DNA of 64,000 bases from Naegleria gruberi (lineage: Eukaryota). The position numbers and the translations under genes are program-made. The stretch is taken from the NCBI GenBank assembly GCA_000004985.1, contig GG738873.1. One strand, 5' to 3'. Shown one piece after another: positions 10,470 to 55,357 of this stretch. How positions within the stretch are numbered: the first letter of the stretch is position 1; every line of letters starts with the position of its first letter. The notes under the pieces are model-generated. The model was not told the origin of the DNA, did no database searches, and saw nothing but the letters and a program-made list of their open reading frames with translations.

Positions 10470-12830
10470 ATGTTGAAACGATTCCTCAGTGCTAGTGTTG
10501 CTCATCATCACTATTCGAACACAACCTCATCATCAACAATACTCTCATCGGTAATTCCTTCAGGTAAAAATTTTGCCAATAATGCCTCTTCATTAGTATT
10601 AAATTTGAGAAATTATTCTTCGTCATCTTCTCAAGATAAGAAAGTTTCATCTCTAAAACACACAACACGTCAAAAGGATATTAAAAGTAATCAAGATAGT
10701 ACGGATTCTCTCGGAAATATTATGTTTGAATTACCAAGTGATAAAATCAGAAATGTAGGAATTATTGCTCATATTGATGCTGGAAAAACAACAACAACTG
10801 AAAGAATGCTTTATTATAGTGGATATAGTTCTCATTTGGGAAATGTTGATGATGGTGATACAATTACTGATTATATGCCACAAGAACAAGAAAGAGGTAT
10901 CACCATTACAAGTGCTGCAATTACATTTAAATGGAAGGATCATAGAGTTAATTTAATTGATACTCCTGGTCACGTTGACTTTACTTTTGAAGTGGAAAGA
11001 TCAGTGAGTGTTTTGGATGGTGCTGTTGCAATTTTTGATGTTGTCAATGGTGTGGAAGCTCAAAGTAAGACAGTTTGGAGACAAGCAGATAGATATAATG
11101 TACCAAGAATTGTTTACATGAATAAGATGGATAAAATTGGAGCTAATTTTGAAACAGCAATTGAAACCTTGTTGGAAAGATTGCCAAGTTGTCCAACCCC
11201 AATTCCTATTCAATTACCTAGTGGAACAGAAGATGCTTTCAATTCAGTTTTTGATTTGATTGAATTGAAGGAATATGTTTTCACAGGTGATGAATCTAGA
11301 ACTTATAACATTAAACCAATTCAGGAAAAGGATTTAGCAAGAGTTACGGAAGCAAGAGAAACAATGATTGATACTATTGCTAGTCTTGATGATGAATTAG
11401 GAGAAAAATATTTAAACGAGGAAGAAATTACATCTGAGGATATTCACAATGCTGTCAGAAGAGTTACAATTGAGAGAAAGGGTATTCCAATTTTCTGTGG
11501 AAGTTCATTGAAGAATAAGGGAGTTCAACAAGTTATGGATGGTATTGTGAGATATCTTCCTGGTCCAAAAATTGATGAAGCTTCAAAGCAAAGAGAATTG
11601 AATGCCTTTGCCTTCAAGGTTATTAACGATGTACAAAGAGGGTTATTGGTATTCGTTAGAGTTTATAGTGGTTCTGTTGATATCACTAAATCTCCAGCAA
11701 TTTTCAATCACTCAAAGAATCAAAAGGAAAGAATTGGTAAAGTTTATCAAATGCATGCCAACGTTCCTCAAGAAGTCAAGAAAATCTCAGCTGGTAACAT
11801 TGGTGTCCTTGTTGGTTTGAAAGAAACAGGTACAGGTGATATTCTTGTTGCTAAACAAGGATCCAAGACTGACCCGTCAATTCCACAACTTTCTGTTCCA
11901 AAACCTGTTTTCTTCTGTTCAATAGAGGCTGAAAATAGTGCAGATCAAGATGCTCTCGATAATGCCTTGTCAATTATGCAAAAGGAAGACCCAAGTTTAC
12001 AAATTACAAATAATGAAGAAACCAATCAAACACTTGTGAGTGGTATGGGTGAATTGCATTTGGAAATTATTAAGGATAGAATTTTAACAGAATACGGTAT
12101 CAATGTTGAAATGGGTGAGGTACAAATTTCATACAGAGAAACACTTACTGTCGAATCACCAGTCACATATTTGGAATTTGATAAGAAACTCACCACTGGA
12201 AAGAGACTTTATGCTAGGTTGTGGATTAAAGTTGGTCCTGCCGAATCTGGTGTAGGAAATAACGTCGAGTTTGATTGGGATGAGGATAAATGTACTCCAG
12301 ACATGAAGACTATCAAGAAATTTGAAAAATCCATTAGATATGGTCTTGAAAGTAGTTTCATGAGAGGTGCTCTCTTGGGATATCCAATCGAAGAAATCAA
12401 GGTTACAGTTGTTGGAGCATCAGTTTTGGATGAGAATAGAGAACAAATCGTTGTAGGAGAAGAATTACAAAATCAATCATTTATTCAATGTGCCCACTCA
12501 TTGTTTACTAAGATTTTGAAGGACAATGAACAGAGTGCCAGACTTTTGGAACCATATATGAATTTGGAAATTGAAACAGATAGAGCATATATTGGTACAA
12601 TTATGTCAGATTTGACAGGTTCTAGAAGAGCTAAGATTAAGGGTATGCAAGCTAGAAATGACCTCACAGTTATTTCAGCAGAAGTACCACTCAGTGAAAT
12701 GATTGGATACAGTTCTCATTTGAGATCACTCACATCTGGTCAATGCCACTATCATATGGACTTTGCTAGATATGAAACTTTACAACAAGAATATCAAAGA
12801 AAGCTCATTACAAAACTGAGAGGTTATTAG
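10470..12830 (+). CDS. GFM2: Mitochondrial elongation factor G2 / ribosome-releasing factor 2 (GFM2-like)
   Basis: G-domain motifs AHIDAGKTTTTERMLYYSG, GNVDDGDTITDYMPQEQERGITI, DTPGHVDFTFEVERS, NKMD. Full five-domain EF-G length. N-terminal MLKRFLSASVAHHH presequence. First ATG at 10470 (ORF called from TTG at 10452). Ends in TAG. Confidence 0.85.
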   Translation: MLKRFLSASVAHHHYSNTTSSSTILSSVIPSGKNFANNASSLVLNLRNYSSSSSQDKKVSSLKHTTRQKDIKSNQDSTDSLGNIMFELPSDKIRNVGIIAHIDAGKTTTTERMLYYSGYSSHLGNVDDGDTITDYMPQEQERGITITSAAITFKWKDHRVNLIDTPGHVDFTFEVERSVSVLDGAVAIFDVVNGVEAQSKTVWRQADRYNVPRIVYMNKMDKIGANFETAIETLLERLPSCPTPIPIQLPSGTEDAFNSVFDLIELKEYVFTGDESRTYNIKPIQEKDLARVTEARETMIDTIASLDDELGEKYLNEEEITSEDIHNAVRRVTIERKGIPIFCGSSLKNKGVQQVMDGIVRYLPGPKIDEASKQRELNAFAFKVINDVQRGLLVFVRVYSGSVDITKSPAIFNHSKNQKERIGKVYQMHANVPQEVKKISAGNIGVLVGLKETGTGDILVAKQGSKTDPSIPQLSVPKPVFFCSIEAENSADQDALDNALSIMQKEDPSLQITNNEETNQTLVSGMGELHLEIIKDRILTEYGINVEMGEVQISYRETLTVESPVTYLEFDKKLTTGKRLYARLWIKVGPAESGVGNNVEFDWDEDKCTPDMKTIKKFEKSIRYGLESSFMRGALLGYPIEEIKVTVVGASVLDENREQIVVGEELQNQSFIQCAHSLFTKILKDNEQSARLLEPYMNLEIETDRAYIGTIMSDLTGSRRAKIKGMQARNDLTVISAEVPLSEMIGYSSHLRSLTSGQCHYHMDFARYETLQQEYQRKLITKLRGY

Positions 12831-15489: not shown

Positions 15490-16506
15490 CTAACTAATGT
15501 TTTGAGTGGGATAATTAACAATCTTGCTTAAAATAGTGGCAAATTGAATGCATTCTTGAACTGAGTTTGGATTGCAGCTCACTATTGAAACCATATTCGA
15601 TTCTCCAAAGAAATCACCTTTTAAACTCTTGACAAATGAACATCCTTTGAGTGGTATGATGGGTTGTTGACATAGATCCAATGATCTTGCAATAGGCTTC
15701 AATTGTTTAAACACACAAGTCAATTCTTCACATTGATAATTGACCATTCGAATAAATTTCAATTGACTCTTATGAATGTGCTCTTTCTTTTCATTTTCAT
15801 CCATGATTCTCCTATCCACTTCTATTAAAATATAATTTGACATTGTAAATGATGACGTTTCCTTTTGATTGTAGAAACAAGATGTGTTAAATAAACATCT
15901 TTCCAAAAATTCCAATGAATCTTTCAAATTGAAAAGTGAAATCTTTGAATAGCCGTGAAGAATTGGTTCCTCATTGCTCTGAAATTTAATTACAGGAAAG
16001 TTTGCACTTAAAATATCATGAAATCGTTCACCTGTTAAGCAGAGACAAGATGCTTTGAGTGAAACTGAACTTTTCTGATCAGAAAATAAATGTTCAAACG
16101 ATTGTTGTATCATTCCATTCATATCATCATGTGTATTTCCCATCATTCTATGTCATTCATAACCAATTAATAGAAGAAAATATTAGAATTCAATTTGAAA
16201 GTAATCTTACATGTTCATATGGCTGACATCCTCTACAATCATAACAGTTCCATTGTATCCATGGAGTGTTTTATCAATGGTTGGCATGATTGCTTCTTTG
16301 AAATATATATTACAATTGACAGGACTTCATTCTTAAGAGAATTAGAATTTCTTGAAAACTTACTCTTCCACAACTCCATCATATTGATATTCTCTATTAT
16401 TTTTCAAGTCAACAATGCACTTTCCCTTGTTGTCCTTAATTTCCATGTCTGTCAATTGATTACCATCATAAACATGCAAGACAACCACTGCTTGACTTTT
16501 AGACAT
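15490..16506 (-). CDS. Kinesin motor-like protein with degenerate ATP-binding motifs (pseudo-kinesin A), 3 exons: complement(join(15490..16147,16211..16324,16364..16506))
   Basis: Kinesin-fold signatures (HGYNGTV, GMIQQSFEHLF, C-terminal PLKGCSFVKSLKGDFFGESNMVSIVSCNP...ILSKI matching [22 protein letters not shown]). P-loop GQTGSGKT replaced by IVEDVSHMN; switch II DLAGSE replaced by RMVNYQ. Introns 16325..16363 and 16148..16210 (GTAAGT/GTAAGA donors). Confidence 0.6.
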
Positions 16507-16554: not shown

Positions 16555-17641
16555 TTAATGTTTATGAACAGATTCTGTTGCAATATGCTTCTTAGGATGA
16601 TTAACAATCTTTGAGAATGATGAAGCAATTTGAATAGTTTTCAAAATTTGTTGTTTTGTTGTTCCAATACTAAATACGATTGATGTATTCGAATTGCCGC
16701 CTAAACCTTCTCTCAAGCTATGTGTCAGAACATTATCTCTGTATGGAATGAATTTTTCACCTGTTGTCAATCTGTTTACCACAGACAAAAACTGATCATA
16801 AGTTTTTGCCATTTCCAATCCTAGTTTGGAAGTTTCCAAAAAGTAATTCATAATATCCACAAACTTGATTTCACTCTTCAAAATTTGAAAACTTTTATCC
16901 TCTTCCTTCCATTCTCTTTGCTCAATTTCAATAATCATATAATAAACAGCATGTCTAGTATTTGTCGATCCATGTTGAGTAGCAAAAAGTGTTGAATGTT
17001 TCATTCCAGCATTCACCAATTCATTCACAACTTTCATTGAGAGAACAGGAACTCTTTTCAATCCTTCAAAGCAAAGTGTCTTGTTAGGTAATTCCTTAAA
17101 TTTAACTCTCGGAGTTGTTGAATCCAAAACATCATAAAATAATTGATTACACAACATTAGGGAGGAGGCATAAATTGTGACTTGATCGTGCTTTCCTTCA
17201 ATCATTTCAAACAACTTTTCAAAGGTGTGAAATATTAAGCCCTTCTCATGACGCATTAATCTGTTTATGGGATAAAGAGCATTAAGAAAATTTAGATAAT
17301 TACAAAGCTAGATATAAATACTAACGTTTTTCTATGAGCCTCATCTTCAAATAATAAAACAGTTCCATCAAAACCTAACATGGCTTGTTCAACAATTGGT
17401 TTCACAGCAACATTAAACAATTCTGAACAATCTACAGGACTAACTCATCCGATATAAATAATAACAAAATCCATTCATTCAATGTGTATACTTACTCTTC
17501 AAATACTCCATCAAAAGGATACTCAGTTGTTGGCCACGTATTAAAATCTCTCATAATTTTCCCTTCCTTAATGCCCATATTAATGTCATCCGAGTAGTCA
17601 TTCCAATCAAAAGCTTGAATATACACTGAAAGTGGTTTCAT
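16555..17641 (-). CDS. Kinesin motor-like protein with degenerate ATP-binding motifs (pseudo-kinesin B), 3 exons: complement(join(16555..17260,17326..17439,17496..17641))
   Basis: Paralogue of 15490..16506 with the same exon structure (exon 2 is 114 nt in both). FDGVFED...GFDGTVLLFEDEAHRKT where kinesins have GYNGTIFAYGQTGSGKT; FIPYRDNVLTHSLREGLGGNSNTSIVFSI matches the kinesin neck-linker/alpha6 region; switch II is DIMNYF. Confidence 0.65.
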
Positions 17642-23471: not shown

Positions 23472-24737
23472 TTAAGCTTTAGGATTTTGAGCGGAACTAG
23501 AAATGGATTTTACAATTTGTTTGATTGCAGCACCTTCTCCAAAACGTAAAATGTAAGGTGCAACTACAGACATGTCAAAAGCACATTGATTTCTCATGTA
23601 ACAGATGGCAATCATTCCTTCAGTATCTCTTTCAGCAGCAGTATTTGTCATTAAACATGGTGTTTCCTTCTCACATCCATAATAGAAAAATTCATGTTTG
23701 CATGTTGTAAAGAGAGATCTACGTCCCAAACCATTCCACTTCTTTTTACATTCAACTTGACATGCAACACATGTTGTATTAGAATATGATGTGAATTGAA
23801 CTTGTGGTAAAGCCAATGAAGTTGGTCCAAGAATACCATTAAATAGTGCAGGAGAATTCATCAATAAATTCAATGCTCCCATTGAAAATTCCATTCTTGA
23901 AGCACCTCCTTTTGGTGATGTAGTTCTAGTGACAGAAATTTGTGTTGAGATTTCATTTGCTGTTGGTGCTGGTGTTGACGAAATAGAACGAAGACTATCC
24001 TTGAGAGCAGTATTTCTATTCTTTGGGCCAATTGAGAGACTGGACTTGGTCTTACTATTCTTGCTGGCAGCTTTACTTTTGGCACTTGTCTTGGAGCTCT
24101 TTGATTTGCTACTGTTCTTTGAAGAAGATTTACTAGAACTCTTTGAGCTCTTACTTGCTGATTTTCCACTTTTTCCACTTTTACCACCACTTTTGCCAGA
24201 ACCCTTTCCACCATTTCTTCCACTTTTTCCACTGGCTCCTTTTCCACCTCTGCCACCTCTTCCTCCAGAGCTGCCACCTCTGCCTCCTCCACCACGTCCA
24301 CCCTTTCCACTAGCTCCATTACCACCTCTGCCTCCAGAACTGCCTCTGCCAGAACCACCTCTGCCTCCTGCACTGCCACCTCTACCACCACGTCCACCAC
24401 CTCTGCCTCCAGAACCACCACGTCCACCTCTTCCACCTCTGCCTCCACCACGTCCACCTCCTCTTCCACCACCTCTGCCTCCACCACCACGACCTCCACC
24501 TCTTCCAAGGACACTGACACCATGTATCATCTCTAAATCTTCATCTTCATGTTTAAGAGTATTCTTTTTGAATGTATCGCTTGAACTAGAACTTGTGGTT
24601 GAGAGAGTTTGTGCACAATTAGGGCGTGAAGCTCTAACATGTCCAACATGTAACAAGGCAATACTTAACACTAACAAAAGTAACAAGCTAGCAATAACTG
24701 AAAACTCTCTTGATAGTTTGTCCTTTCTGATAGTCAT
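23472..24737 (-). CDS. Signal-peptide Gly/Arg-rich (GGRGG)n, Lys/Ser-rich protein with Cys-rich C-terminal domain (intact paralogue)
   Basis: Same architecture as 4888..5944: signal peptide, RPNCAQTLSTTS, DTFKKNTL, long GGRGG array, SKSSK array, C-terminal CVACQVECKKKWNGLG...FYYGCEK. Single uninterrupted 421-aa ORF. Confidence 0.7.
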   Translation of the reverse strand: MTIRKDKLSREFSVIASLLLLLVLSIALLHVGHVRASRPNCAQTLSTTSSSSSDTFKKNTLKHEDEDLEMIHGVSVLGRGGGRGGGGRGGGRGGGRGGGRGGRGGRGGSGGRGGGRGGRGGSAGGRGGSGRGSSGGRGGNGASGKGGRGGGGRGGSSGGRGGRGGKGASGKSGRNGGKGSGKSGGKSGKSGKSASKSSKSSSKSSSKNSSKSKSSKTSAKSKAASKNSKTKSSLSIGPKNRNTALKDSLRSISSTPAPTANEISTQISVTRTTSPKGGASRMEFSMGALNLLMNSPALFNGILGPTSLALPQVQFTSYSNTTCVACQVECKKKWNGLGRRSLFTTCKHEFFYYGCEKETPCLMTNTAAERDTEGMIAICYMRNQCAFDMSVVAPYILRFGEGAAIKQIVKSISSSAQNPKA

Positions 24738-35441: not shown

Positions 35442-36941
35442 ATGAACAATTTGAAAATTGAAATTTGTAAAAAAAATATGAAACCAGTCGAAACTGGGAA
35501 TGTAATATTTGCTGATGATGTAATCTATGAAATCCTATCTTTCCTAAATAATGAATGGAAGTTTATTTTATTGAACGGTTGTTTAGTTTCTAAACAATGG
35601 TTTACAATGATTAAGAAATATTCGAAACTAGAAGTTGAATTTAATCATCGGATCAATACTGAACAATTATTTTCAAGTGACTTTTTAAATTCAATTGCAA
35701 AATTGAGAATTGATAAATATTGTGGAATTTTATATCCGAGAAAATTCAATGAAAATCTTGGAATGATGACTCAGTTGACTGAATTGAATCTTTCAGCATG
35801 GAAATTAAAAATGGAACATGTTGAAGCTATTTCAAAATTATATAATTTGAAAAAATTAATCATTAATAATCGTTTCAATAATTTTGATACAAAGGAAGCA
35901 AAATTAATTGGGAAATTAGAAAATTTAACATTTTTGGAAATTTCTAGAATTGGTGATATGGGACTGAAATATATTTCAGAATTGAAAAATTTGAGAATTC
36001 TAAATATACATGATCCATGTTTTACCTTTACAAGGTATGGACTTGAATCCATCAGTGAAATGCCCAAATTGACTTGTTTGAAAGTTAGAGATTTGAAAAT
36101 TTGTAACGAAGGTGTCAATTGGATTAGTCAATCAACTCAATTGACTGATTTAGATTTTACAACCTGTACTTTAGATCAAGGATTAGAATCATTATGTGAA
36201 ATGAAGCGATTAACAAGTCTATGGTTGCCAAGTTGCCCAAAATATGCAAACAAAGTTGAATTAATTGGCCAATTGACACAATTGACTAGTCTCAACATTT
36301 GTGCTAGAGGAATTAATGATCAAGATGGAGTACATATCAAAGAATTGACGCAATTGACTGAACTTGATATTAGTCTGAATCAAATTGTTTTTGAAACTAT
36401 CGAATCTATTAGCCAATTGACCAATTTAATTATTCTAAACATGTCCTATTGTAATATTGGAGATGATGGAGCATGCCTTATTGGAGAATTGAGTCAATTA
36501 AGAGAGTTGAAAGTTTTAAAAAATTTAATTACTGATGCAGGAGTTATTTCAATCAGTCAATTAAAACATCTTATCAAGTTGGATATTAGTAATAATGAAA
36601 TTAGTAAGACTGGAGCTGAATCAATTAGTGGATTGAGAAATTTAACTTACCTTAATATTGGATATAATTTAATTGGAGATGAGGGATGCGATTTCATTTG
36701 TGATCTGTCTCTATTAAGATCTCTTCATGCTGATAAAACTGGTATCAGCTCAGAAGGTATCAAGTCAATCAGAAATTTGAGAAAATTGACTAGTCTTTCT
36801 TTATCAAATAATAATATTTGTGATGAAGGATGCAAATTCATTAATATTAAGCAATTGAACTACCTTAATGTCAAGTCAAATCCATGTAATGCAGATTTAA
36901 GTTTCTCAAATCTTTACTCTAAAACCACATTATTTCCATAA
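35442..36941 (+). CDS. Leucine-rich-repeat protein (RNI-like LRR), possible F-box at N-terminus
   Basis: 499-aa intronless ORF. About 16 tandem ~24-aa LRRs (L..L.L..N.I.D.G...I..L..L). N-terminal VIYEILSFL...LVSKQW resembles an F-box. Confidence 0.7.
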   Translation: MNNLKIEICKKNMKPVETGNVIFADDVIYEILSFLNNEWKFILLNGCLVSKQWFTMIKKYSKLEVEFNHRINTEQLFSSDFLNSIAKLRIDKYCGILYPRKFNENLGMMTQLTELNLSAWKLKMEHVEAISKLYNLKKLIINNRFNNFDTKEAKLIGKLENLTFLEISRIGDMGLKYISELKNLRILNIHDPCFTFTRYGLESISEMPKLTCLKVRDLKICNEGVNWISQSTQLTDLDFTTCTLDQGLESLCEMKRLTSLWLPSCPKYANKVELIGQLTQLTSLNICARGINDQDGVHIKELTQLTELDISLNQIVFETIESISQLTNLIILNMSYCNIGDDGACLIGELSQLRELKVLKNLITDAGVISISQLKHLIKLDISNNEISKTGAESISGLRNLTYLNIGYNLIGDEGCDFICDLSLLRSLHADKTGISSEGIKSIRNLRKLTSLSLSNNNICDEGCKFINIKQLNYLNVKSNPCNADLSFSNLYSKTTLFP

Positions 36942-36991: not shown

Positions 36992-39436
36992 TTATTGCCT
37001 CAGAATTTCAAATTCCTCAATTTTTGCATAACTTGATGCTCTTTTGTCCTGTCTTACTGATTCTGACACTATTTCTATGTCTCTTTTCAATTCATCACTG
37101 GCATATTTAAGGGCTACTCCTTGTAACTTGACAACTGTTAACACGAATAGTCTATCATTTCTTAATGAAACATCTGCATATTCAAATGCTAGACCATTTT
37201 GTGATGCTGCAAGTAAAACTATCTCTCTATCTTTCTTGAGTGATTCAATCGCGTAACAAAGGGCTTTACCATTCTGTTTCACAGCCCCAGTTACTATTTC
37301 TCTATCTTCCCTTAATATCAAGTCAGCAAATTTTAAGGATTTTCCATTTTGTAGAACAGCTTTTAATACAATTTCTCTATCTTTCTTTAAAGATATATCA
37401 ACGTATTGTAAAATAAGTCCATTTCTTTGTAGCGCCAATAGTACAAATTCTCTATCTCTTTTGAATACATCATTTGCAAGTGAAAACTCCCGTGGATTAT
37501 ATTTGATGGTGAGTAACAAGATATTCTTATCTTTTCTGTGATATTCCTTATAGACTGTTCGTGGTAATAAATGCCCAAAAGGAATGGAGGATATCACGCC
37601 TTGATGATTATTCCCATCTTCAATTATTTCTTTTGACATGATTAATGAATCAATATTAATTGATTCATCTGCATATTCCACAGCATCCACATTTTGATTT
37701 ACAGCTACGGTAACTATTTCTCTATCTTTTCTTAATGAAGGATCAGCATATCTAAGAGCCCTTCCATCTTGTTTTACTGCCATTAATACTATTTCTCTAT
37801 CACAATTCAAAGGATATTCAATAAATTCGAGAGCTCTTCCATTTGTTGACACTGCTATTAAAGCCATGTCTTTTTGTTTCTTAAATATTTCGTTCGCATA
37901 TTTAAGAGCAGAACCATTTTGATGAATTGCCTTTCGTACTATTTCTTCTTCTCTTTTCAATGACTCATCAGCATACTTCAATGAGCATCCATTTTGTCCA
38001 ATGGCAGTTTCAACAATCTCTCTATCTTTTCTGAAACGATAAGCTGCGCTTGCTAAATGCCAGCCATTTTTTCTGACAGCTTCCAATGCAATTTCTCTAT
38101 CTTCTCTAAATGATTTATCAAGATGCCTAAAGATTGATCTACTACTACTTTTAACGGCCTCCAATACTATTTCTCTATCTTTCCTTAATTCAAAATTAAC
38201 ATATTTGATGGAATAACCAAACTATTTAACTGCTTGCAATACAATTTCTTTTTCGTTCTTGAAATCTTCTTTCGCATATTTGAGATAATATCCAAATTGT
38301 TTAACAGATTGTAAGGTTATCTCCCTATCATCTTTATCAAGTAGTTCAAGAGAGACACCAAGAGAAGCACAGATTAATTGAACATTCCTATTCTCTGCAA
38401 GAGCTTGATTGAGGTGATGAAATTGATGAGATAACATGATTGGTCCTTCAATCTGTCCATTTTCAGAGAATATTCTTTTCAAAATTTGTTGACAAGAAGG
38501 TCTATTCTCTGGATTCTCACTCAACATTTCCACAAGCAATTTAAATATAAAAATCCATCCATCTTCATCTTCCTCTAAATTACCTAACTCTATTAATTTT
38601 CGTACAGTTTCCACTTCATTAGATATTATTTCTCTTACCATAGAAGAGTATTGATCTAGATGTGTTATTCTGTTTTCATTTGTTGGAAAAAGAATAAACA
38701 GAATTAATCTAGCCAAACTCCAAATATCACTCTTGAACGATTCTCCCAATTTTGCACATTCAGGTGCAACAAAACCTGGACTACCATTAAGAGTATAACT
38801 CTCATGCATGTTGAGATCATTCGAATAATCAATGTGGTCCATTCCTTGGTTAGAAAACCGATCATCATTAGAAATGGCAATCCCAAAATCTGCCAAAACA
38901 ACATCAATAGCACATATTTTACAATCAGTATCATGAAGTGAAATAATAATATTCTCTGGTTTGATATCTCTGTGAATTATGTTTGCCTCCTCAAGTTTAC
39001 AAAGAGCATTCACAATTCTAATGAAAATTTGTAAAATTTGACATAATAAAATCCTTCCATTCTTGTTAATTTGCATATCTGTATAATTTTTCAAATCAAT
39101 TCCTCTATATTTTGATACTGTCACAACCATGTCATTAAAATTATCCACAAAATCAAATGTCAATAAACTGGCATCATGTAATTCTTCTGAAATTTTAGCA
39201 AATTTCCAATCACCAACCGGACAATCATCAAAATCATCATCTTCTCCTCGTTTAACAATTTTTACAACATATTCCTGATTGTCAATGGATAGACATTTGC
39301 AAACTACAACATTGTTTCCCTTCTTAAATATTTGAATAGGAATATATTGAATATTATTAATGAAAAATGGTTTTCCAAGCCTGGAGAGAGCCTCGTATAG
39401 ATTTTGATCATCGTTCGTACTTTGATGTTCAATCAT
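36992..39436 (-). CDS. Ser/Thr protein kinase fused to a ~13-unit tandem repeat array (DUF4116-like 'REIVLxAVxQNGxALxYA' repeats); reading frame interrupted by a single in-frame TAG at 38222..38224
   Basis: Kinase subdomains (VVKIVKRG, HRDIKPENIII, DFGIA, APE) in ORF 38222..39436. The repeat array begins at the end of that ORF and continues in the SAME frame through the TAG into ORF 36992..38164 (…IVLQAVK*FGYSIKYVNFELRKDREIVLEAVK…). The TAG occupies the Gln position of the repeat consensus (previous unit …SVKQFGYYLKYA). Confidence 0.6.
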
Positions 39437-39587
39437 TTTTTAATGAATTTATTCATAATTTTAGTGGCAGTGTTGCATATTTAAGTTGATTGTAAACCTC
39501 TAATTAAGCAACATACTGTATTGGATCAACATCATTCAGAATACCAAATATTTACTGTTCATAATTCCCAATAAGCTGAAATAAAAA

Positions 39588-39705
39588 GACTACAGCACCA
39601 CAGGTTCCCAAGTTGTCTCCAACCTCAGTACTGATGTGGCTCGACGATGCTTAACTTCTCAAATCGGACGGGATGAGGTGCATTCATCGTGATATGGCCG
39701 TAGCC
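39588..39705 (-). rRNA. 5S ribosomal RNA
   Basis: Minus-strand GGCTACGGCCATATCACGATGAATGCACCTCATCCCGTCCGATTTGAGAAGTTAAGCATCGTCGAGCCACATCAGTACTGAGGTTGGAGACAACTTGGGAACCTGTGGTGCTGTAGTC matches the 5S consensus (GCCTACGGCCATACCAC...CCCGTCCGATCT..GAAGTTAAGC...TTAGTACT...TGGGAA.CC.GGTGCTGTAGGC). The 5' and 3' ends pair as helix I. Followed by TTTTTATTT Pol III terminator. Confidence 0.85.
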
Positions 39706-45431: not shown

Positions 45432-48068
45432 ATGAAAAGTCTACTTCGACTCAACAACAAGAACACTATTAAATTATCATCATCAACAAACACATCATCC
45501 AACATTGTGCACAACAATTCTAAACAACAACAACAACTTAATTATTCTATCAACTCATCAAATACTATTAAAAAATCATGTCTCTCATCATCATTATCAT
45601 TCCGAAATAATAAGAATCTTTTAAATAATAACAACAATCAACAACACTATATTTATCATCAATATCATACTACTACCACAAATTGCAAAGATACACATTT
45701 AATGAATGAAAATTTCAATTCATCATCCATTCACAATGATCTTGATAATCCTAATCATGTCTATGATACAATTATAGTTGGAGGTGGACATTCTGGATGT
45801 GAAGCTGTTAATGCAGCACTTTTTCACAATGCAGATACTTTAATGATTACTCACTCTAAAGATACAATTGGAGTTTTAAGTTGTAATCCATCAGTGGGAG
45901 GTGTTGGTAAAGGAATTCTAGTAAAGGAAGTTGATGCACTTGGTGGTTTAATGGGAAAAGTTTCAGATTATGCAATGATTCATTACAATGTTTTAAATTT
46001 AAGTAAGGGACCAGCTGTTTATGGACCTAGAGGTCAAATGGATAGATACATTTATAGAAATACAATGCAAAAAGTTTTTAATGAATATACAATGAAACAC
46101 AAATTGAAAATTATTGATGGAAGTGTTGATAATTTAATAACTAAAAATGGTAAAATTCAAGGAGTAATTTTAAAAAATGGTCAAAAAATTTATGCCAAAT
46201 CAGTAGTTATTACAACAGGTACATTTTTGAGAGGAGAAATTCATATTGGAACTCAAGTACGTTTTCCAGGTGGAAGAATTAGTGAAATTGGTACAGAAAG
46301 AACATGTGGAAGTTTAGCAGATACATTTTACAATGAATTTAAATTTGAAATGGGAAGAATGAAAACTGGAACACCACCACGTCTTCACAGAAATTCAATT
46401 AATTGGGATATTTTAACAGAACAACCATCAACTAAATTTATTGAACCATTCTCATTTGAACATGATGAAAATACTTTTTATGGAACAAGAGTTCCACATT
46501 CACAACCTCACATGATGTGTTATGAAACTGAAACTAATGAAAAAACACATGAAATTATTAGAAGTAATACAGATGAATTGGCAGATGAAGTTAGATTTGG
46601 TAATGGTCCACGTTATTGTCCATCCATTGAAATTAAAGTGACACGTTTTCCACAGAGAACTTCACATCGTATTTGGTTAGAACCTGAAGGACATATTACA
46701 AATAAGGATGAAGCAAAGAAGCTACCATATAATCATTATGCTAATGTCATTTATCCAAATGGTATTTCATCAAGTTTACCTCCAGAGAAACAATTGGAAT
46801 TTTTAAAAACAATGAAAGGATTGGATCAAGTTGAAATGTTACAACCTGGATATGCAGTTGCCTATGATTTTGTTTCACCTAAAGTTGAAATTTCACACAC
46901 ATTACAAACTCACAAATGTCAAGGTTTATTCTTAGCAGGTCAAATTAATGGTACAACTGGTTATGAAGAAGCTGCAGCTCAAGGTATTATTGCAGGTATG
47001 AATGCAGCAATTTACGCAAGAGGTGATAATGAACCTTTCATTTTAGATCGTTCTGAAGCATATATTGGAGTTTTAATTGATGATTTAGTAACGAGAGGAG
47101 TTGATGAACCATATAGAGTATTCACTTCACGTTCAGAATATAGATTAATGTTGAGAGCTGATAATGCTGATTTAAGATTGACTGAGAAGAAATTTGAACA
47201 TGGATTGAATAGTAAATCTGATAAGGAAAGAAATGAATTATTACAAATATTAGATTCTAATAATTCTAAATTTAATAATAGTAGTAGTTCAATGAATGGT
47301 AAAATTGATTTGGAAAGTATTAATCCAACTCTAACAGGATCATCAATTTCACTCTCCAGATATGATAAATGTGTAAAGAGAAGAGAACGTATTGAAAATG
47401 TTCTTAATTTATTACATTCAGTTCAATTCACTCCAAAGATTTGGACACAAATTTTAAATGATCATACTACTGGTAATGATATTGGTAAAAAGAAATCAAT
47501 TGCTGACATTATATCACAACAACATGTTTTATCATTACATGATGTTAATTTTATTGATTTAATTGAAAAATCAAATTATTTATTTAATAAGAAACAACAA
47601 CAACAACAACAACAGGATGATGAGAATACTATTAATACTATTAATGATGATGATAATATTGATGAAAGCAATGATGAAATTATATTAACAGAAGAAGAAA
47701 ATAATATTCAACAATTAAATAGTGAATTAATTTCACTTGCACAAGTATTAGGATCTAAACGTGATGAACAAAGTATTATATCAGAATGTAGATATTTTAA
47801 ATTTTATGATCAATATCAAAGTGATATTGAACAATTATCTAAAATGGAACATTTAATTATACCAGATACTATATATAGTAATATTAGTACTGAATTACCA
47901 CAAATTTCAACAGAAGAAAGAACTAAATTATTAAAACATTTACCAAAAACTTTAAGAGAAGCCTCAATGATTTCTGGAATTAGACAAACAACTTTAATTT
48001 CTCTAATGCAAATTACAAATTCAAAATTAAGAAGAAACAATTATCAACAACAATATCAACAAGAATAA
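45432..48068 (+). CDS. MTO1: tRNA uridine 5-carboxymethylaminomethyl modification enzyme MnmG/GidA family (mitochondrial MTO1 homologue) with long low-complexity N- and C-terminal extensions
   Basis: FAD-binding YDTIIVGGGHSGCEA and SCNPSVGGVGKGILVKEVDALGG, plus GidA core through ...TSRSEYRLMLRADNADLRL. N-terminal Asn/Ser-rich presequence. C-terminal poly-Gln/Asn/Asp region. Confidence 0.85.
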   Translation: MKSLLRLNNKNTIKLSSSTNTSSNIVHNNSKQQQQLNYSINSSNTIKKSCLSSSLSFRNNKNLLNNNNNQQHYIYHQYHTTTTNCKDTHLMNENFNSSSIHNDLDNPNHVYDTIIVGGGHSGCEAVNAALFHNADTLMITHSKDTIGVLSCNPSVGGVGKGILVKEVDALGGLMGKVSDYAMIHYNVLNLSKGPAVYGPRGQMDRYIYRNTMQKVFNEYTMKHKLKIIDGSVDNLITKNGKIQGVILKNGQKIYAKSVVITTGTFLRGEIHIGTQVRFPGGRISEIGTERTCGSLADTFYNEFKFEMGRMKTGTPPRLHRNSINWDILTEQPSTKFIEPFSFEHDENTFYGTRVPHSQPHMMCYETETNEKTHEIIRSNTDELADEVRFGNGPRYCPSIEIKVTRFPQRTSHRIWLEPEGHITNKDEAKKLPYNHYANVIYPNGISSSLPPEKQLEFLKTMKGLDQVEMLQPGYAVAYDFVSPKVEISHTLQTHKCQGLFLAGQINGTTGYEEAAAQGIIAGMNAAIYARGDNEPFILDRSEAYIGVLIDDLVTRGVDEPYRVFTSRSEYRLMLRADNADLRLTEKKFEHGLNSKSDKERNELLQILDSNNSKFNNSSSSMNGKIDLESINPTLTGSSISLSRYDKCVKRRERIENVLNLLHSVQFTPKIWTQILNDHTTGNDIGKKKSIADIISQQHVLSLHDVNFIDLIEKSNYLFNKKQQQQQQQDDENTINTINDDDNIDESNDEIILTEEENNIQQLNSELISLAQVLGSKRDEQSIISECRYFKFYDQYQSDIEQLSKMEHLIIPDTIYSNISTELPQISTEERTKLLKHLPKTLREASMISGIRQTTLISLMQITNSKLRRNNYQQQYQQE

Positions 48069-50268: not shown

Positions 50269-52320
50269 ATGAATGTATTTGATAAAATACAACCAAATTC
50301 TGGTTCTGTTCCGCCACCATCATCAAATACAACTAAACGACCAAAATCATTGGCTGCCATGCTATCTCGTAACCGTTCTTCCACTTCCAAATTTGATAAT
50401 TTATCAACAACAATAACAAACAATGATGATGATTCGAATAATACTGCTAATACTACTTCTGAAACCAATAATAATACTACTACCACTCCTATCAATGATG
50501 ACGACAATACTGCCTCTCCCTCCATCACAACAAACACCACCAATACGACAACACCTACCTATACTCCTACTACTCCTCCACCACCTCCGCCTGCTGCATT
50601 GAAACAACGACGAATTTCAATGGCTGCCTATACTCAAAAACCTTCAACAACAACAATTAATACTGCCAATGATGATAATAATAATGATAATAATATCAAT
50701 TCACCACCATCCATAACGACCACTTCATCCTCCGTAACAAATATTGATATTACTAATAATAATACTACTCCAATGGATCTCTTAACAACAATAGATTGTA
50801 AACAAAATAATATTGAAGTTGGTAGTAGCTCTGTTCCTAGTACTCCAACCACCACCACTGGTAGTAATGTCAGTACTCCAACTGGTACTAAACCAACTAC
50901 TGCAACTGCAACAGCAGGTAATAGAAAATCACAAAAACCAGCTGAAGTTTTGAATCCACAAGATTTTTATAGTGTTGATCTTTCACAATTGACTTATACA
51001 CCTGATCCAGATTCGAGTATTGTCATTCAAGAGAATCAAATTGAACATGCTTCATTGAATAAGTTGATTGAAGAATTGACAAGTCACACTAATTATGATA
51101 TTCACTTTTTGCATACATTCATGTTAACATTCAGAAACTTTACTGATAAGGAAACAATTCTTAAAAAACTTGAAGAGAGATTTAATTATCCACCAAATTG
51201 TCCACCTGAAGAATTTGCAACATTTAAACGTGAAATTCTTGATAAGGTTAGATTGAGAATTATCAATTCAATCAAATATTGGATTGAAAACTTTTTCGTT
51301 TTCGATTTTGATAGTGAAATGATGCAATTCTTATCAAAATTCATTGAAATGGTTAGAAAGTCAAATCAAAATGCTCTCGCCAAAGTTATTGAAAATACTT
51401 TAGAACGTGTGAAGAATAATGACTCTGGTAAAGTTATTACAAAGGTTGAATGTCCAGAAATTTTAAAGTTAAAGAAGAAGGTTTTCAGTAAGAAAAAGAC
51501 TTATTCCATTCTTGATTATCCATTACAAGAAGTAGCACGTCAAATGTCATTAATCGATTATACCATGTTTAAAAAGATTGAACCTAAGGAATGTTTGAAT
51601 CAAGCCTGGAATAAGGAACACCGTGTAACTAAAGCTCCAAATATTTCAAGAATGATTCAACATTTCAATCAATTTTCAGGTTTTGTTGCAACTGAAATTT
51701 TAAAACAAGAAGATCATGAAAAACGTGTTAAATGTGTTGAAAAGTTTATTGAACTTGCCAATCATTGTAAAGGACTGAACAATTTCAATGCTGTTTTCAG
51801 TGTCATGTCAGGTTTGAACAGTTCATCTATCCATCGTCTCTCAAAGACATGGGAAGCAATTAGTGAAGAAGCTAAAAAGACTCGTGAAGAATTACTTTCC
51901 ATTACAAATACTAATGGTAACTTTGCAAACTTGAGAAATATGCTTAAAACTGTTAATCCACCATGTGTACCATATAATGGTGTATTCTTAACAGATTTGA
52001 CATTTATTGAAGATGGTTCACCAAAATATATTAATGGTCTCATCAATTTTGGTAAATGTAGATTATTTGCAAAGGTCATTCGTGATATTCAAACCTATCA
52101 AAATACCAGATATAACTTTGAAGAATATAAGGAATTGAAAGATCAAATTGAAGCTGTTGAAAAATTATCTGATGATGAATTATTTAACATGTCACTTCAA
52201 GTTCAACCAAGAGCTCAAAAGAAGAAGAAGGTTGCTACATCAACTGCAAATGCATCAGCTTCATCTTTGAAGGAAGACGATGAAGAAAATGAAAAGAAAC
52301 CTGAAAAGTTAGATTTTTAA
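50269..52320 (+). CDS. Ras guanine-nucleotide exchange factor (RasGEF N-terminal + CDC25-homology catalytic domain)
   Basis: Low-complexity N-terminal ~270 aa. RasGEFN (IEHASLNKLIEELTS...FLHTFMLTFRNF). CDC25 domain (ARQMSLIDYTMFKKIEPKECLNQAW...PCVPYNGVFLTDLTFIEDG). First ATG at 50269 (ORF called from TTG). Confidence 0.85.
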   Translation: MNVFDKIQPNSGSVPPPSSNTTKRPKSLAAMLSRNRSSTSKFDNLSTTITNNDDDSNNTANTTSETNNNTTTTPINDDDNTASPSITTNTTNTTTPTYTPTTPPPPPPAALKQRRISMAAYTQKPSTTTINTANDDNNNDNNINSPPSITTTSSSVTNIDITNNNTTPMDLLTTIDCKQNNIEVGSSSVPSTPTTTTGSNVSTPTGTKPTTATATAGNRKSQKPAEVLNPQDFYSVDLSQLTYTPDPDSSIVIQENQIEHASLNKLIEELTSHTNYDIHFLHTFMLTFRNFTDKETILKKLEERFNYPPNCPPEEFATFKREILDKVRLRIINSIKYWIENFFVFDFDSEMMQFLSKFIEMVRKSNQNALAKVIENTLERVKNNDSGKVITKVECPEILKLKKKVFSKKKTYSILDYPLQEVARQMSLIDYTMFKKIEPKECLNQAWNKEHRVTKAPNISRMIQHFNQFSGFVATEILKQEDHEKRVKCVEKFIELANHCKGLNNFNAVFSVMSGLNSSSIHRLSKTWEAISEEAKKTREELLSITNTNGNFANLRNMLKTVNPPCVPYNGVFLTDLTFIEDGSPKYINGLINFGKCRLFAKVIRDIQTYQNTRYNFEEYKELKDQIEAVEKLSDDELFNMSLQVQPRAQKKKKVATSTANASASSLKEDDEENEKKPEKLDF

Positions 52321-52543
52321 TTCATTTTCTCTCAGTTGACTAGCACCACTAAGAAGAAGAAGATTTCTCAAAGTTTGTATTTTTATTAAAAAAACTCATT
52401 TGAATTGTTTTCAACTATTTCTTCCAAGTTTTCTCAAATTATTCTTCCCTTTCTTTTCATACATAAAGGCACTTACGGGTGAGATAATTTTAGAAACTGT
52501 AGATTTACCGCCATTTTAAACTACAATAACAACTTTAAAAAAA

Positions 52544-53690
52544 ATGTCCAACACAAACAATAGCAATGGAACATTTTGGCAAGATAGAGAAATTAGATTT
52601 GACTCGAATATTGAGGCCGGGTAAGTAAAGTTGCCTTGATAATTATTTAATGATCATCCGATTAGTGATTTGAGTCTTAAAAAAGGTGAATTTGAAATTG
52701 ATGTTTTGGATAATGTAGAAGATACCAAAGGTAATAATGGTGAGAAGGGAAAATGTATAGTAACAAACCTGAGAATGATTTGGATTTGCACCAGAAATCC
52801 TAAAATCAATCTTAGTATCGGATATAATACAATGGTTAATATCAAAATTCAATCATCAAACAGTCGTTTAAAGGGAACAAATCAATCCTTATATTTATTG
52901 ACTAAATATCACGGATCAAGATTTGAATTCATCTTTTCTAACATGGTCAAGACAAATCCCAGACTTTTTTCAACAATTCAAGCAGTGTTTAAAGCCTATC
53001 AATCAAGTAAAATGTACAGAGAAATTAGATTAAGATCAGCAATTATTAAGAATAAGTGCTTGGATCTTCTTCCTAAAGAACAAATATATACTTCATTGAG
53101 TGGTGTTTGGAATCTTAGTGCGGATCAAGGTAACTTGGGAACCTTTATTGTGACAAATATTAGAATTGTATGGTTTGCAGACTTGGCAGAGAACTTTAAC
53201 GTCTCAATTCCATATTTACAAATTGTAGGTTTTATGAAATTAGTGTTTTCTTACTAATATTATCAAGAAATCGGTTTCGTTTAGGGAATCCAAGTTTGGT
53301 AAAGCATTTGTGGTGGAAACTAATAGAACATCAGGAAGAGAATTTGTGTTGGGTTTTAGAGTTGATCCAATTGAAAAGTTTAATGATTTGTATAAGGAAG
53401 TTTCTTCACTTCATCAACTATTCTCAAGTAATCCAATACTGGGTGTGGAATATCAAGCTGAGGAAAAACAAGCAAGCCTTGAACAATTGATGGTTCCAAA
53501 AACTTCAGAAACAATGAAATATGTTGGTAATAAGGATACATCAGATCCATTAGCTCCTTATTATGTGGATTCTTCTGAACGAGTTGCTAACACATCCATC
53601 GGATTCAGCAATGAATTAGGATTGGCTTGTGAGGAATTGAAGGATGGAATGACAATTAAGAAACTCTGGCAATGCATTTATAAAGTTTAA
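52544..53690 (+). CDS. BBS5: BBSome subunit BBS5 orthologue, 3 exons: join(52544..52620,52666..53224,53295..53690)
   Basis: Exon 1 MSNTNNSNGTFWQDREIRFD (human LWEDRDVRFD). Exon 2 IDVLDNVEDTKGNNGEKGKCIVTNLRMIW...TKYHGSRFEFIFSNMV...SKMYREIRLRSAII...GVWNLSADQGNLGTFIVTNIRIVW...FNVSIPYLQI. Exon 3 FVLGFRVDPIEKF...SLHQLF. All align closely to human BBS5. Introns 52621..52665 (GTAAGT...ATTAG) and 53225..53294 (GTAGGT..TACTAAT..CCAAG). Confidence 0.8.
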
Positions 53691-53983
53691 TTTCGAATTT
53701 ATCAAAAATTCATCTACGATTATTCCAACGAATGAACCACACATTAATCTGGCTTACTTGCCTTACAGGTTGCGTACTAGAAATCGCGAAGGGACCACAA
53801 TAGGTTTCCGATAAGCTGTGTGATGAAAATCTAGATTACTCGACCAATAGGCGAGAAGGAATGACGCTGCATTCTCTGTATTTTACAATGGTTTTCCACA
53901 ATGGTTTTCGCCGATGATGAATAGATTAATTGTTATAATAACAAGTGCACGACCCCACCAAAAAAGCCTTTACTTTAAAAAAA

Positions 53984-55357
53984 ATGTCTTCATCAACAAC
54001 ACCAAAGCTTATCGGAAATACACCACTCTCACAAGCCGATCCAGAATTGTTCGACCTCATTGAAAAGGAAAAAGAAAGACAATGGAAAGGATTGGAATTA
54101 ATTGCTAGTGAAAATTTTACTAGTCAAGCTGTTATGGATTGTCTAGGAAGTTGTTTAACCAATAAATATAGTGAAGGACAAGTTGGTGCTCGTTACTATG
54201 GAGGTAATGAATATATTGATGAAATTGAAAAATTATGTAAAACTAGAGCACTTGAAGCCTTTTCATTAAACTCTGAAGACTGGAGTGTCAATGTCCAACC
54301 ATATTCAGGATCACCTGCTAATTTTGCTGTTTATACAGGTCTTCTTCAACCTCATGATAGAATTATGGGACTTGATTTACCAAGTGGTGGACATTTAACT
54401 CATGGATATTATTCTGGAAAGAAGAAGATTTCTGCAACTTCAATTTATTTTGAAAGTTTACCATATACTGTTGATCAACAAGGTTTAATTGATTATGATG
54501 GTTTAGAAAAATCTGCACGTGTTTTTAGACCTAAACTTATTATATGTGGTGGTAGTGCATATCCACGTGATTGGGATTATGCTAGATTGAGAAAGATTGC
54601 AGATGAAATTGAAGCCTATTTAATGTGTGATATGGCTCACTATTCTGGTTTAGTTGCTACTGGTGAACATAATAGTCCATTCCAATATTGTGATGTTGTT
54701 ACTTCAACTACTCACAAATCTTTGAGAGGTCCAAGAGCTGGTATTATCTTTGCCAAGAAGGCTTTAATGCCAAAGATTGACTTTGCTGTCTTCCCAGGTA
54801 TTCAAGGTGGTCCACATAATCATCAAATTGCTGCTATTGCAACTCAATTGAAAGAAGTTAAAACTCCAGAATTTAAACAATATATTCAACAAGTTAAAGC
54901 TAATGCTAAGACTCTTGCTAAAGCACTCATTGAAAAGGGATATACACTTGCTACAGGTGGTACTGATAATCATTTAGTTTTATGGAATTTGAGACCACAA
55001 GGTATTACTGGTTCAAAGATGGAAAAATTATTTGATGCTGTTTCAATTACTTCAAATAAGAATTCTATTGCAGGTGATGCTAATGCATTGTCACCTTTTG
55101 GTGTTCGTTTAGGTACTCCTGCTTTAACTACAAGAGGTTTTAAGGAAGTAGATTTTGAAAAGGTTGCTGAATTCCTTCACCGTGGTGTTCAAATTGGTTT
55201 GAAATTACAAGAACAAGCTGTTTCAACTAAATTGGCTGATTTCTTGGCTCTATTTGAAAATAATGAAGAATTAACTCAATTGAAATCTGAAGTTGAATCA
55301 TTTGCTAAGCAATTTGGTATTCCAGGATGGAATATTGAAACACAAAGATATCATTAA
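53984..55357 (+). CDS. SHMT: Serine hydroxymethyltransferase
   Basis: [47 protein letters not shown] and PLP-lysine context. 457 aa from the ATG at 53984 (ORF called from GTG at 53945). Confidence 0.9.

What the first reader, a model, noticed from the sequence alone, without database searches (positions are those of the whole stretch)
52544..53690. BBS5 orthologue implies a cilium/flagellum, which conflicts with the Dictyostelium-like look of the sequence
Composition, AAAAATG start contexts, poly-Asn/Gln/Thr tracts and RasGEF/LRR/F-box gene content resemble dictyostelid genomes, but dictyostelids lack cilia and the BBSome. The window encodes an unambiguous BBS5 (two DM16/PH-like repeats, high identity to human). 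Together with mitochondrial EF-G2, TFAM-like, MTO1 and LYR genes, this indicates a ciliated, mitochondriate, AT-rich protist using the standard code, for example a heterolobosean amoeboflagellate such as Naegleria. This is an inference only.
Basis: inference. Interest (0 to 1): 0.5.

Follow-up and report, generated by a model that had tools for sequence, protein, structure and literature searches.

The report
Naegleria gruberi BBS5 gene, already annotated

Summary
Window 52544-53690 (+) holds a three-exon gene with two short GT..AG introns. Its 352-aa product is a full-length BBS5 (Pfam PF07289, E 4e-140). The best solved relatives are the BBS5 subunits of the bovine and human BBSome (E about 1e-116).

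The organism is settled by exact sequence look-up. The 352-aa product is identical to N. gruberi strain NEG-M XP_002676231.1 / EFC43487.1 / UniProt D2VIC7 (NAEGRDRAFT_34252). Fourteen other ORFs between 2.6 and 60 kb are identical to N. gruberi proteins on the same 461,873-bp scaffold. These include both immediate neighbours, RasGEF EFC43486 and SHMT EFC43488. The next-best BBS5 proteins are N. fowleri (85%) and Willaertia magna (72%), both heteroloboseans, and no dictyostelid is among the best 120.

N. gruberi is a textbook amoeba that builds two flagella de novo. The "conflict" with a Dictyostelium-like look is therefore only apparent.

The gene, genome and biology are already published, so interest is low. 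Not tested here: the other BBSome and IFT genes of the assembly, expression during differentiation, and any biochemistry.

The parts
52544..52620 (+). BBS5 exon 1 (ATG at 52544; codons 1-25 plus 2 nt)
   Evidence: Sequence read. The model was built. The translated product equals XP_002676231.1 exactly.
52621..52665 (+). Intron 1, 45 nt, GTAAGT...TAG
   Evidence: The acceptor at 52666 is supported by the orthologue alignment and by the exact database match of the 352-aa form only.
52666..53224 (+). BBS5 exon 2 (first PH-like domain and most of the second)
   Evidence: The 195-aa ORF 52670-53257 is the same stretch that a prokaryote-style gene caller found on a Logan contig (P0107).
53225..53267 (+). 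Intron 2, 43 nt, GTAGGT...AAG
   Evidence: The junction restores the conserved YLQIKSVSFRESKFG motif (human YLQIRSIKIRDSKFG).
53268..53690 (+). BBS5 exon 3, including stop TAA 53688-53690
52694..53035 (+). PH-like (DM16) domain 1, residues about 36-149
   Evidence: Strands 36-118 plus helix 128-149 in the AlphaFold model. Pfam Vps36 GLUE-type PH hit at residues 25-88. Coordinates computed from the gene model.
53084..53429 (+). PH-like (DM16) domain 2, residues about 166-266 (spans intron 2)
   Evidence: Strands 166-244 plus helix 248-266. Pfam bPH_3 hit at residues 159-229. Internal repeat with domain 1, E 4e-7.
53430..53687 (+). C-terminal region, residues 267-352. It carries the conserved ELGLA.E.L.DG...LW end motif and is modelled with low confidence.
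   Evidence: pLDDT is below 50 for 272-277, 292-300 and 310-316. Invariant G330, E334, L345 and W346 in the 57-sequence alignment.
50269..52320 (+). Upstream neighbour: RasGEF gene (N. gruberi EFC43486 / XP_002676230.1). Not part of BBS5; it anchors the locus.
   Evidence: Exact match. Pfam RasGEF_N plus RasGEF.
53984..55357 (+). Downstream neighbour: serine hydroxymethyltransferase (EFC43488 / XP_002676232.1). Not part of BBS5; it anchors the locus.
   Evidence: Exact match. Pfam SHMT, E 2.7e-178.

Best explanation
Window 52544-53690 is the nuclear gene NAEGRDRAFT_34252 of Naegleria gruberi strain NEG-M. It encodes the orthologue of BBS5, the small subunit of the BBSome that has two PH-like domains.

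Shown here: the gene is intact and has three exons; the protein is a full-length BBS5 by sequence and by predicted fold; and it lies in a 64-kb stretch of an N. gruberi scaffold.

Inferred from established knowledge of the family: the protein assembles with BBS1/2/4/7/8/9 into the BBSome, an adaptor that links membrane-protein cargo to intraflagellar-transport trains (PMC10074162; structures 6VBU and 6XTB). BBS5 is classed as the membrane/lipid-interacting subunit (PMC3495828).

In Naegleria the protein would be needed only when the amoeba builds its two flagella de novo. It is therefore probably made during the amoeba-to-flagellate differentiation. This last step is inference and was not verified here.
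For: Identity of the gene:
- Full-length Pfam PF07289 match, E 4.4e-140.
- PDB BBS5 chains at E about 1e-116.
- All 120 listed homologues carry PF07289.
- 70 of the 72 columns that are invariant in 56 other BBS5 proteins are kept.
- Internal PH-like duplication.
- AlphaFold model with mean pLDDT 76.7. Its best Foldseek PDB matches are BBS5 of the bovine BBSome (6vbu_5, E 1.9e-29) and the human BBSome (6xtb, E 9.9e-20), followed by tandem-PH and GLUE/PH domains.

Identity of the organism:
- The 352-aa product equals EFC43487.1 / XP_002676231.1 / D2VIC7.
- Fourteen further window ORFs are exact N. gruberi NEG-M proteins on one 461,873-bp scaffold. Accession numbers run consecutively across the locus: EFC43486 RasGEF, 43487 BBS5, 43488 SHMT, 43489 3-beta-HSD, 43490 LYR.
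- The AT-rich tail is also N. gruberi, with 100% identity to P0139.

Biology:
- N. gruberi NEG differentiates into a cell with two basal bodies and two flagella (PMC4819266, PMC11772885).
- Many cilia genes are induced during that differentiation (PMC12183034, citing Fritz-Laylin and Cande 2010).
Against: Nothing contradicts the identification. The limits are these:
- The C-terminal third of the model has low confidence.
- The rest of the BBSome in this genome was not checked here.
- I could not read the primary genome paper or the differentiation-array paper, so induction of this particular gene is unverified.
- BBS5 can persist without other BBSome subunits in at least one lineage, Toxoplasma (PMC10074162). 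BBS5 alone is therefore not proof of a complete BBSome.
Confidence: 0.94

Rival explanations
1. The window comes from a dictyostelid (or another aciliate amoebozoan), and BBS5 is an anomalous retention, a horizontal transfer or a contaminant.
For: Only superficial look: A-rich start contexts, poly-Asn/Thr tracts, and RasGEF, LRR and F-box genes.
Against: Fifteen ORFs spread over 2.6-60 kb are exact N. gruberi NEG-M proteins, including both neighbours of BBS5. The tail gene matches only Naegleria species. The closest BBS5 proteins are heterolobosean and no dictyostelid is among the best 120. G+C is 31.8%.
Confidence: 0.005
2. The window comes from a different flagellated AT-rich protist, such as another Naegleria species, Willaertia or Physarum, rather than N. 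gruberi.
For: BBS5 is widely conserved among flagellated protists at 50-60% identity.
Against: N. fowleri BBS5 is only 85% identical and Willaertia 72%, whereas N. gruberi NEG-M is 100% over all 352 residues. Fourteen more proteins are exact matches. A very close sister strain cannot be told apart at the protein level.
Confidence: 0.02
3. The gene is a decaying relic or pseudogene that no longer makes a functional BBS5.
For: None found. Amoebae grow indefinitely without flagella, so relaxed selection is conceivable in principle.
Against: The reading frame is intact with canonical GT..AG introns. 70 of 72 universally invariant BBS5 positions are kept. Identity to the N. fowleri orthologue is 85%. 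The two PH-like domains are modelled confidently.
Confidence: 0.02
4. Naegleria BBS5 works mainly outside the BBSome, for example as a phosphoinositide-binding factor in amoebae or in the nucleus, and not as a flagellar trafficking subunit.
For: Toxoplasma keeps BBS5 without other BBSome subunits, and human BBS5 is also found in nuclear fractions (PMC10074162).
Against: Naegleria builds canonical flagella (PMC4819266). The protein shows no lineage-specific domain additions or losses relative to BBSome-embedded BBS5. No data here point to expression in amoebae.
Confidence: 0.04

Closest known systems
Naegleria gruberi NEG-M NAEGRDRAFT_34252 (XP_002676231.1 / EFC43487.1 / UniProt D2VIC7, 'BBSome complex member BBS5 PH domain-containing protein')
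   Same: Identical over all 352 residues. Same neighbours and same scaffold.
   Different: Nothing. It is the same gene. NCBI calls it only a 'hypothetical protein', while UniRef names it by its BBS5 PH domain.
Mammalian BBS5, subunit of the BBSome (PDB 6VBU/6VBV/6VNW/6VOA bovine, 6XTB human)
   Same: Colinear over residues 10-345 against 6-339 of 341 at about 46-49% identity. Same two PH-like domains and conserved C-terminal motif. Best fold matches.
   Different: An N-terminus about 7 residues longer and a few short indels in the C-terminal third. Incorporation into a complex, lipid binding and ciliary role are shown for the mammalian protein only. The Naegleria flagellum is a transient motile organelle, not a primary cilium.
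BBS5 of Naegleria fowleri (FDP41_001925) and Willaertia magna (ABK040_000667)
   Same: Closest relatives at 85% and 72% identity. Same length class (350 and 346 aa) and same three-residue segment at the exon 1/2 junction.
   Different: Different species. The divergence shows the window is N. gruberi itself and not these.
Tandem-PH and GLUE domains (Spt16 middle domain, Vps36/EAP45 GLUE)
   Same: PH-like fold of each half.
   Different: Only 9-22% identity, unrelated partners and functions, and far weaker scores than BBS5. This is fold-level resemblance only.

Membership tests
BBS5 (Pfam PF07289, BBL5) | Full-length match to the family profile above the curated threshold | tested here: met
   466.9 bits against a cutoff of 23.8, E 4.4e-140, profile positions 1-333 of 334.
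BBS5 (Pfam PF07289, BBL5) | Two tandem PH-like (DM16) domains | tested here: met
   Internal repeat, E 4e-7. PH-type Pfam hits in each half. Two beta-sandwich-plus-helix units in the model. Tandem-PH proteins rank just below BBS5 in the fold search.
BBS5 (Pfam PF07289, BBL5) | C-terminal alpha-helical extension after the second PH domain (three helices, as described in PMC10074162) | tested here: inconclusive
   The sequence is conserved there (G330, E334, L345, W346 invariant). The model has pLDDT below 50 in much of 272-316 and shows only short helices.
BBS5 (Pfam PF07289, BBL5) | Closest solved structures and closest sequences are BBS5 proteins (orthology rather than a generic PH protein) | tested here: met
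   The only PDB sequence hits are BBS5. The two best fold hits are BBS5 chains. All 120 listed homologues carry PF07289. 70 of 72 family-invariant positions are kept.
BBSome (functional complex) | Other core subunits (BBS1, 2, 4, 7, 8, 9) and IFT genes encoded in the same genome | not tested
   No tool here searches the N. gruberi assembly. Indirect literature support only: 182 flagellar proteins from the genome study (cited in PMC3471859), RABL2 (PMC4736243) and Tectonic1 (PMC4635004) orthologues in N. gruberi.
BBSome (functional complex) | Physical incorporation into the complex, phosphoinositide binding, and localisation to basal body or flagellum | not testable with these tools
   Needs biochemistry and imaging in Naegleria.
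BBSome (functional complex) | The host organism builds cilia or flagella by a compartmentalised (IFT-type) route | not tested
   Literature only. N. gruberi NEG forms two basal bodies and two flagella (PMC4819266, PMC11772885). Dependence on IFT was not checked.
Genome of Naegleria gruberi strain NEG-M (Heterolobosea) | Encoded proteins identical to deposited NEG-M proteins and colinear on one scaffold | tested here: met
   15 exact matches on the 461,873-bp scaffold, with consecutive accessions around BBS5. Tail gene 100% identical over the deposited model. Lineage.
Dictyostelia | Best hits of conserved proteins fall in dictyostelids | tested here: not met
   The best BBS5 hits are Naegleria and Willaertia. 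All exact matches are N. gruberi.

The most novel reading that the evidence does not exclude
Naegleria BBS5 might have a role independent of the BBSome. One candidate is a phosphoinositide-binding factor active in the flagellum-less amoeba. Another is an early factor in de novo basal-body docking. This would parallel the lone BBS5 kept by Toxoplasma and the nuclear pool reported for human BBS5 (PMC10074162). Nothing in the sequence suggests this. It simply cannot be excluded without expression and interaction data.
Probability: 0.04. Interest if true: 0.4.

Novelty: already known. Interest (0 to 1): 0.05.

Why it matters
It matters mainly as a quality check on the scan. A reader with no tools recognised a ciliary marker gene, noticed that it did not fit the Dictyostelium-like look of the sequence, and named the right genus.

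Biologically it adds nothing. The N. gruberi NEG-M genome, this gene model and the amoeba-to-flagellate biology are all published.

BBS5 is a classic marker of ciliated lineages. It was itself discovered by comparative genomics of flagellated against non-flagellated organisms (Li et al. 2004, as cited in PMC3144413).

The only practical by-products are a few probable gene-model improvements nearby, listed under things noticed in passing.

Tried and rejected
1. A 349-aa gene model with the intron 1 acceptor at 52675. Rejected in favour of the acceptor at 52666 (352 aa) on the orthologue alignment and the exact database match.

2. The look-up of encoding contigs for the 352-aa protein returned nothing on record. 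The window DNA could therefore not be aligned to the deposited scaffold, and the identification rests on exact protein matches.

3. The primary papers could not be read: Fritz-Laylin 2010 Cell, Fritz-Laylin and Cande 2010 J Cell Sci, van Dam 2013 PNAS, Hodges 2010 and Kennard 2025. The PMC ids for van Dam and Hodges were recalled from memory, so those two failures may only reflect a wrong id.

4. Full-text searches for an explicit table of Naegleria BBSome subunits found none in the held library. The iScience 2023 BBS survey holds no supplements and does not name Naegleria in its main text.

5. I considered using a database search with a human BBS or IFT query to find N. gruberi orthologues. 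I rejected it because only the best 120 hits are listed, and a heterolobosean hit would not rank there.

6. A second cilium gene was looked for inside the window by Pfam scan of 39 ORFs. None was recognised. The two kinesin-motor fragments at 15.5-17.3 kb were not assigned to a family.

7. tRNA and Rfam scans found only a 5S rRNA gene, unrelated to the finding.

Full report
**What is there.** The finding's coordinates are exact. An ATG at 52544, in the context AAAAAAAATG, opens a gene that ends with TAA at 53688-53690. No single ORF spans it. Joining three exons through two short canonical introns gives an uninterrupted 1059-nt CDS of 352 codons:
- Exons: 52544-52620, 52666-53224 and 53268-53690.
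- Intron 1: 45 nt, GTAAGT..TAG.
- Intron 2: 43 nt, GTAGGT..AAG.

A second in-frame acceptor at 52675 would give 349 aa. The N. fowleri and Willaertia orthologues keep the three residues in question, and only the 352-aa form exists as a deposited sequence. The acceptor at 52666 is therefore correct.

**What the protein is.**
- It matches Pfam BBL5/PF07289 from profile position 1 to 333 of 334, at 466.9 bits (cutoff 23.8) and E 4.4e-140.
- The only solved structures it hits by sequence are BBS5 of the bovine BBSome (6vbu_5, E 7.7e-116) and the human BBSome (6xtb_E, E 3.3e-113). These are colinear over residues 10-345.
- A search of 5.8 billion proteins returns 1509 homologues, and all 120 listed carry PF07289.
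- In a 57-sequence alignment, 70 of the 72 columns invariant in the other 56 BBS5 proteins are kept.
The halves align to each other (E 4e-7), and PH-type Pfam families hit residues 25-88 and 159-229.
- An AlphaFold model (mean pLDDT 76.7) shows two beta-sandwich-plus-helix units, at residues 36-149 and 166-266.
- Foldseek against the PDB ranks BBS5 chains first (E 1.9e-29 and 9.9e-20). Tandem-PH (Spt16M) and GLUE/PH domains come far behind.
- The C-terminal third is conserved in sequence but poorly modelled, so the helical tail of the family could not be confirmed structurally.
- Identity to mammalian BBS5 is about 46-49%.

**Which organism.**
- Exact look-up shows the 352-aa protein is XP_002676231.1 / EFC43487.1 / UniProt D2VIC7, NAEGRDRAFT_34252 of Naegleria gruberi strain NEG-M, on a 461,873-bp scaffold.
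- The genes on either side are exact N. gruberi entries with consecutive accessions: RasGEF EFC43486, SHMT EFC43488, 3-beta-HSD-like EFC43489 and the LYR-like protein EFC43490.
- Further exact entries on the same scaffold are actin, TCTP, the HMG-box protein, the RING protein, the GDSL lipase, NAEGRDRAFT_80069 and NAEGRDRAFT_68610.
- The EF-G ORF is a special case. Its exact 786-aa sequence is on record only from an unnamed ENA contig, and it shares a 90% cluster with the 679-aa N. gruberi model EFC43477.
- The low-G+C tail of the window (60-64 kb, 24% falling to 17% G+C) is Naegleria too. Its F-box ORF is 100% identical to an N. gruberi predicted protein, and its only other relatives are in N. 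lovaniensis and N. fowleri.
- The next-best BBS5 proteins are N. fowleri (85%) and Willaertia magna (72%), and no dictyostelid is listed.
- N. gruberi is a heterolobosean (Discoba).

**The interpretation.** That is right.
- The supporting gene list was verified by Pfam: EF-G with an N-terminal extension, a two-HMG-box protein, MTO1/GidA, actin, SHMT, a proteasome AAA-ATPase in two exons, RasGEF, LRR and F-box. The LYR hit is sub-threshold.
- Translating with the standard sense-codon table reproduces the deposited proteins exactly. The verified genes end in TAA or TAG.
- The 'conflict' disappears once the organism is known. N. gruberi NEG grows as an amoeba without centrioles or flagella. On starvation it assembles two basal bodies and two flagella de novo (PMC4819266, PMC11772885).
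- The Dictyostelium-like impression comes from shared habits of AT-rich amoebae: A-rich start contexts, poly-Asn/Thr tracts and large signalling families. At 31.8% G+C the window is well above D. discoideum (about 22%, my own knowledge).

**How it most likely works.**
- Shown: an intact, conserved BBS5 gene in a flagellum-building organism.
- Inferred from the family: BBS5 joins BBS1/2/7 (the 'head') and BBS4/8/9/18 (the 'body') in the BBSome. This complex is an adaptor between ciliary membrane cargo and IFT trains (PMC10074162). BBS5 is classed as the membrane/lipid-interacting subunit through its PH domains (PMC3495828).
- Inferred for Naegleria: the gene is transcribed during the amoeba-to-flagellate differentiation, when many cilia genes are induced (PMC12183034). 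I could not check this gene in the primary data.

**Rivals.** A dictyostelid origin, another protist, a pseudogene and a BBSome-independent role are all either refuted by the exact matches or unsupported by any observation here.

**What was not done.**
- 182 flagellar proteins drawn from the genome study (as cited in PMC3471859).
- RABL2 in N. gruberi (PMC4736243).
- A Tectonic1 orthologue (PMC4635004, S1 Fig).
- An ODA8/LRRC56 homologue induced in differentiation (PMC4361367).

BBS5 alone does not prove a complete BBSome, since Toxoplasma keeps BBS5 alone (PMC10074162).

**Verdict.** The feature is an already annotated gene of a published genome. Interest is low and novelty is 'already known'.

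Noticed in passing
window 39587-39705 (-): A complete 5S rRNA gene (Rfam RF00001, 105.4 bits, E 4.4e-22). It lies just upstream of the kinase/DUF4116 gene. It is the only Rfam hit in the window, and no tRNA genes were found.
   Followed up: no
window 52532-52548 and 53972-53988 (+): An identical 17-mer, ACTTTAAAAAAAATGTC, spans the start codons of BBS5 and of the next gene, SHMT. Most genes in the window have an A-run before the ATG, so this is probably the strong start context and not a shared element.
   Followed up: partly
window 53885-53909 (+), in the BBS5-SHMT spacer: A tandem duplicate ACAATGGTTTTC (53885-53896 and 53898-53909) sits in an unusually G+C-rich spacer upstream of SHMT. It was read directly. 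Its function is unknown.
   Followed up: no
window 5087-5944 (+) and 23472-24737 (-): Two paralogous genes with long Gly/Arg/Ser/Lys-rich low-complexity regions. They share a Cys-containing C-terminal domain (63% identity over 155 aa, E 2e-68) that has no Pfam match. The 421-aa ORF is not an exact database entry.
   Followed up: partly
window 15490-16146 (-) and 16555-17256 (-): Two adjacent ORFs each match only the C-terminal two-thirds of the kinesin motor domain. The first scores 24.8 bits (below the cutoff) and the second 83.2 bits. They may be divergent or truncated tandem kinesin-like genes, or their exons may have been missed.
   Followed up: no
window 36992-39436 (-): A protein-kinase ORF ending in a partial DUF4116 repeat is followed directly by an ORF with seven DUF4116 repeats (343.5 bits). 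This is probably one kinase-DUF4116 gene split by an intron.
   Followed up: no
window 60000-64000; ORF 62164-63477 (+): G+C drops from about 32% to 24% and then 17%. The ORFs here carry Asn-rich tracts. The 437-aa F-box ORF is colinear with the 416-418-aa N. lovaniensis and N. fowleri orthologues (100% query coverage). The deposited N. gruberi model is only 293 aa (67% coverage, 100% identity), so that annotation is probably truncated.
   Followed up: partly
window 63603-63950 (-): The C-terminal half of a Rho/Rac-like small GTPase (…SYDRLRPLSYPDSKLILLCFSLVD…ILIGCKYDLRED…). The rest of the gene was not located: in this frame the reading is interrupted by stop codons about 50 nt before the window end. 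It uses very AT-rich codons.
   Followed up: no
window 10470-12830 (+): The EF-G ORF read from its first ATG is 786 aa. That exact form is on record only from an unnamed ENA contig. The deposited N. gruberi model (EFC43477) is 679 aa. The missing N-terminal stretch of about 107 aa, rich in Ser and basic residues, could be a mitochondrial presequence left out of the annotation.
   Followed up: partly
window 45432-48068 (+) and 35442-36941 (+): The MTO1/GidA ORF (878 aa) and the LRR ORF (499 aa) are not exact database entries, although their neighbours are. The deposited models presumably differ in start site or introns.
   Followed up: no
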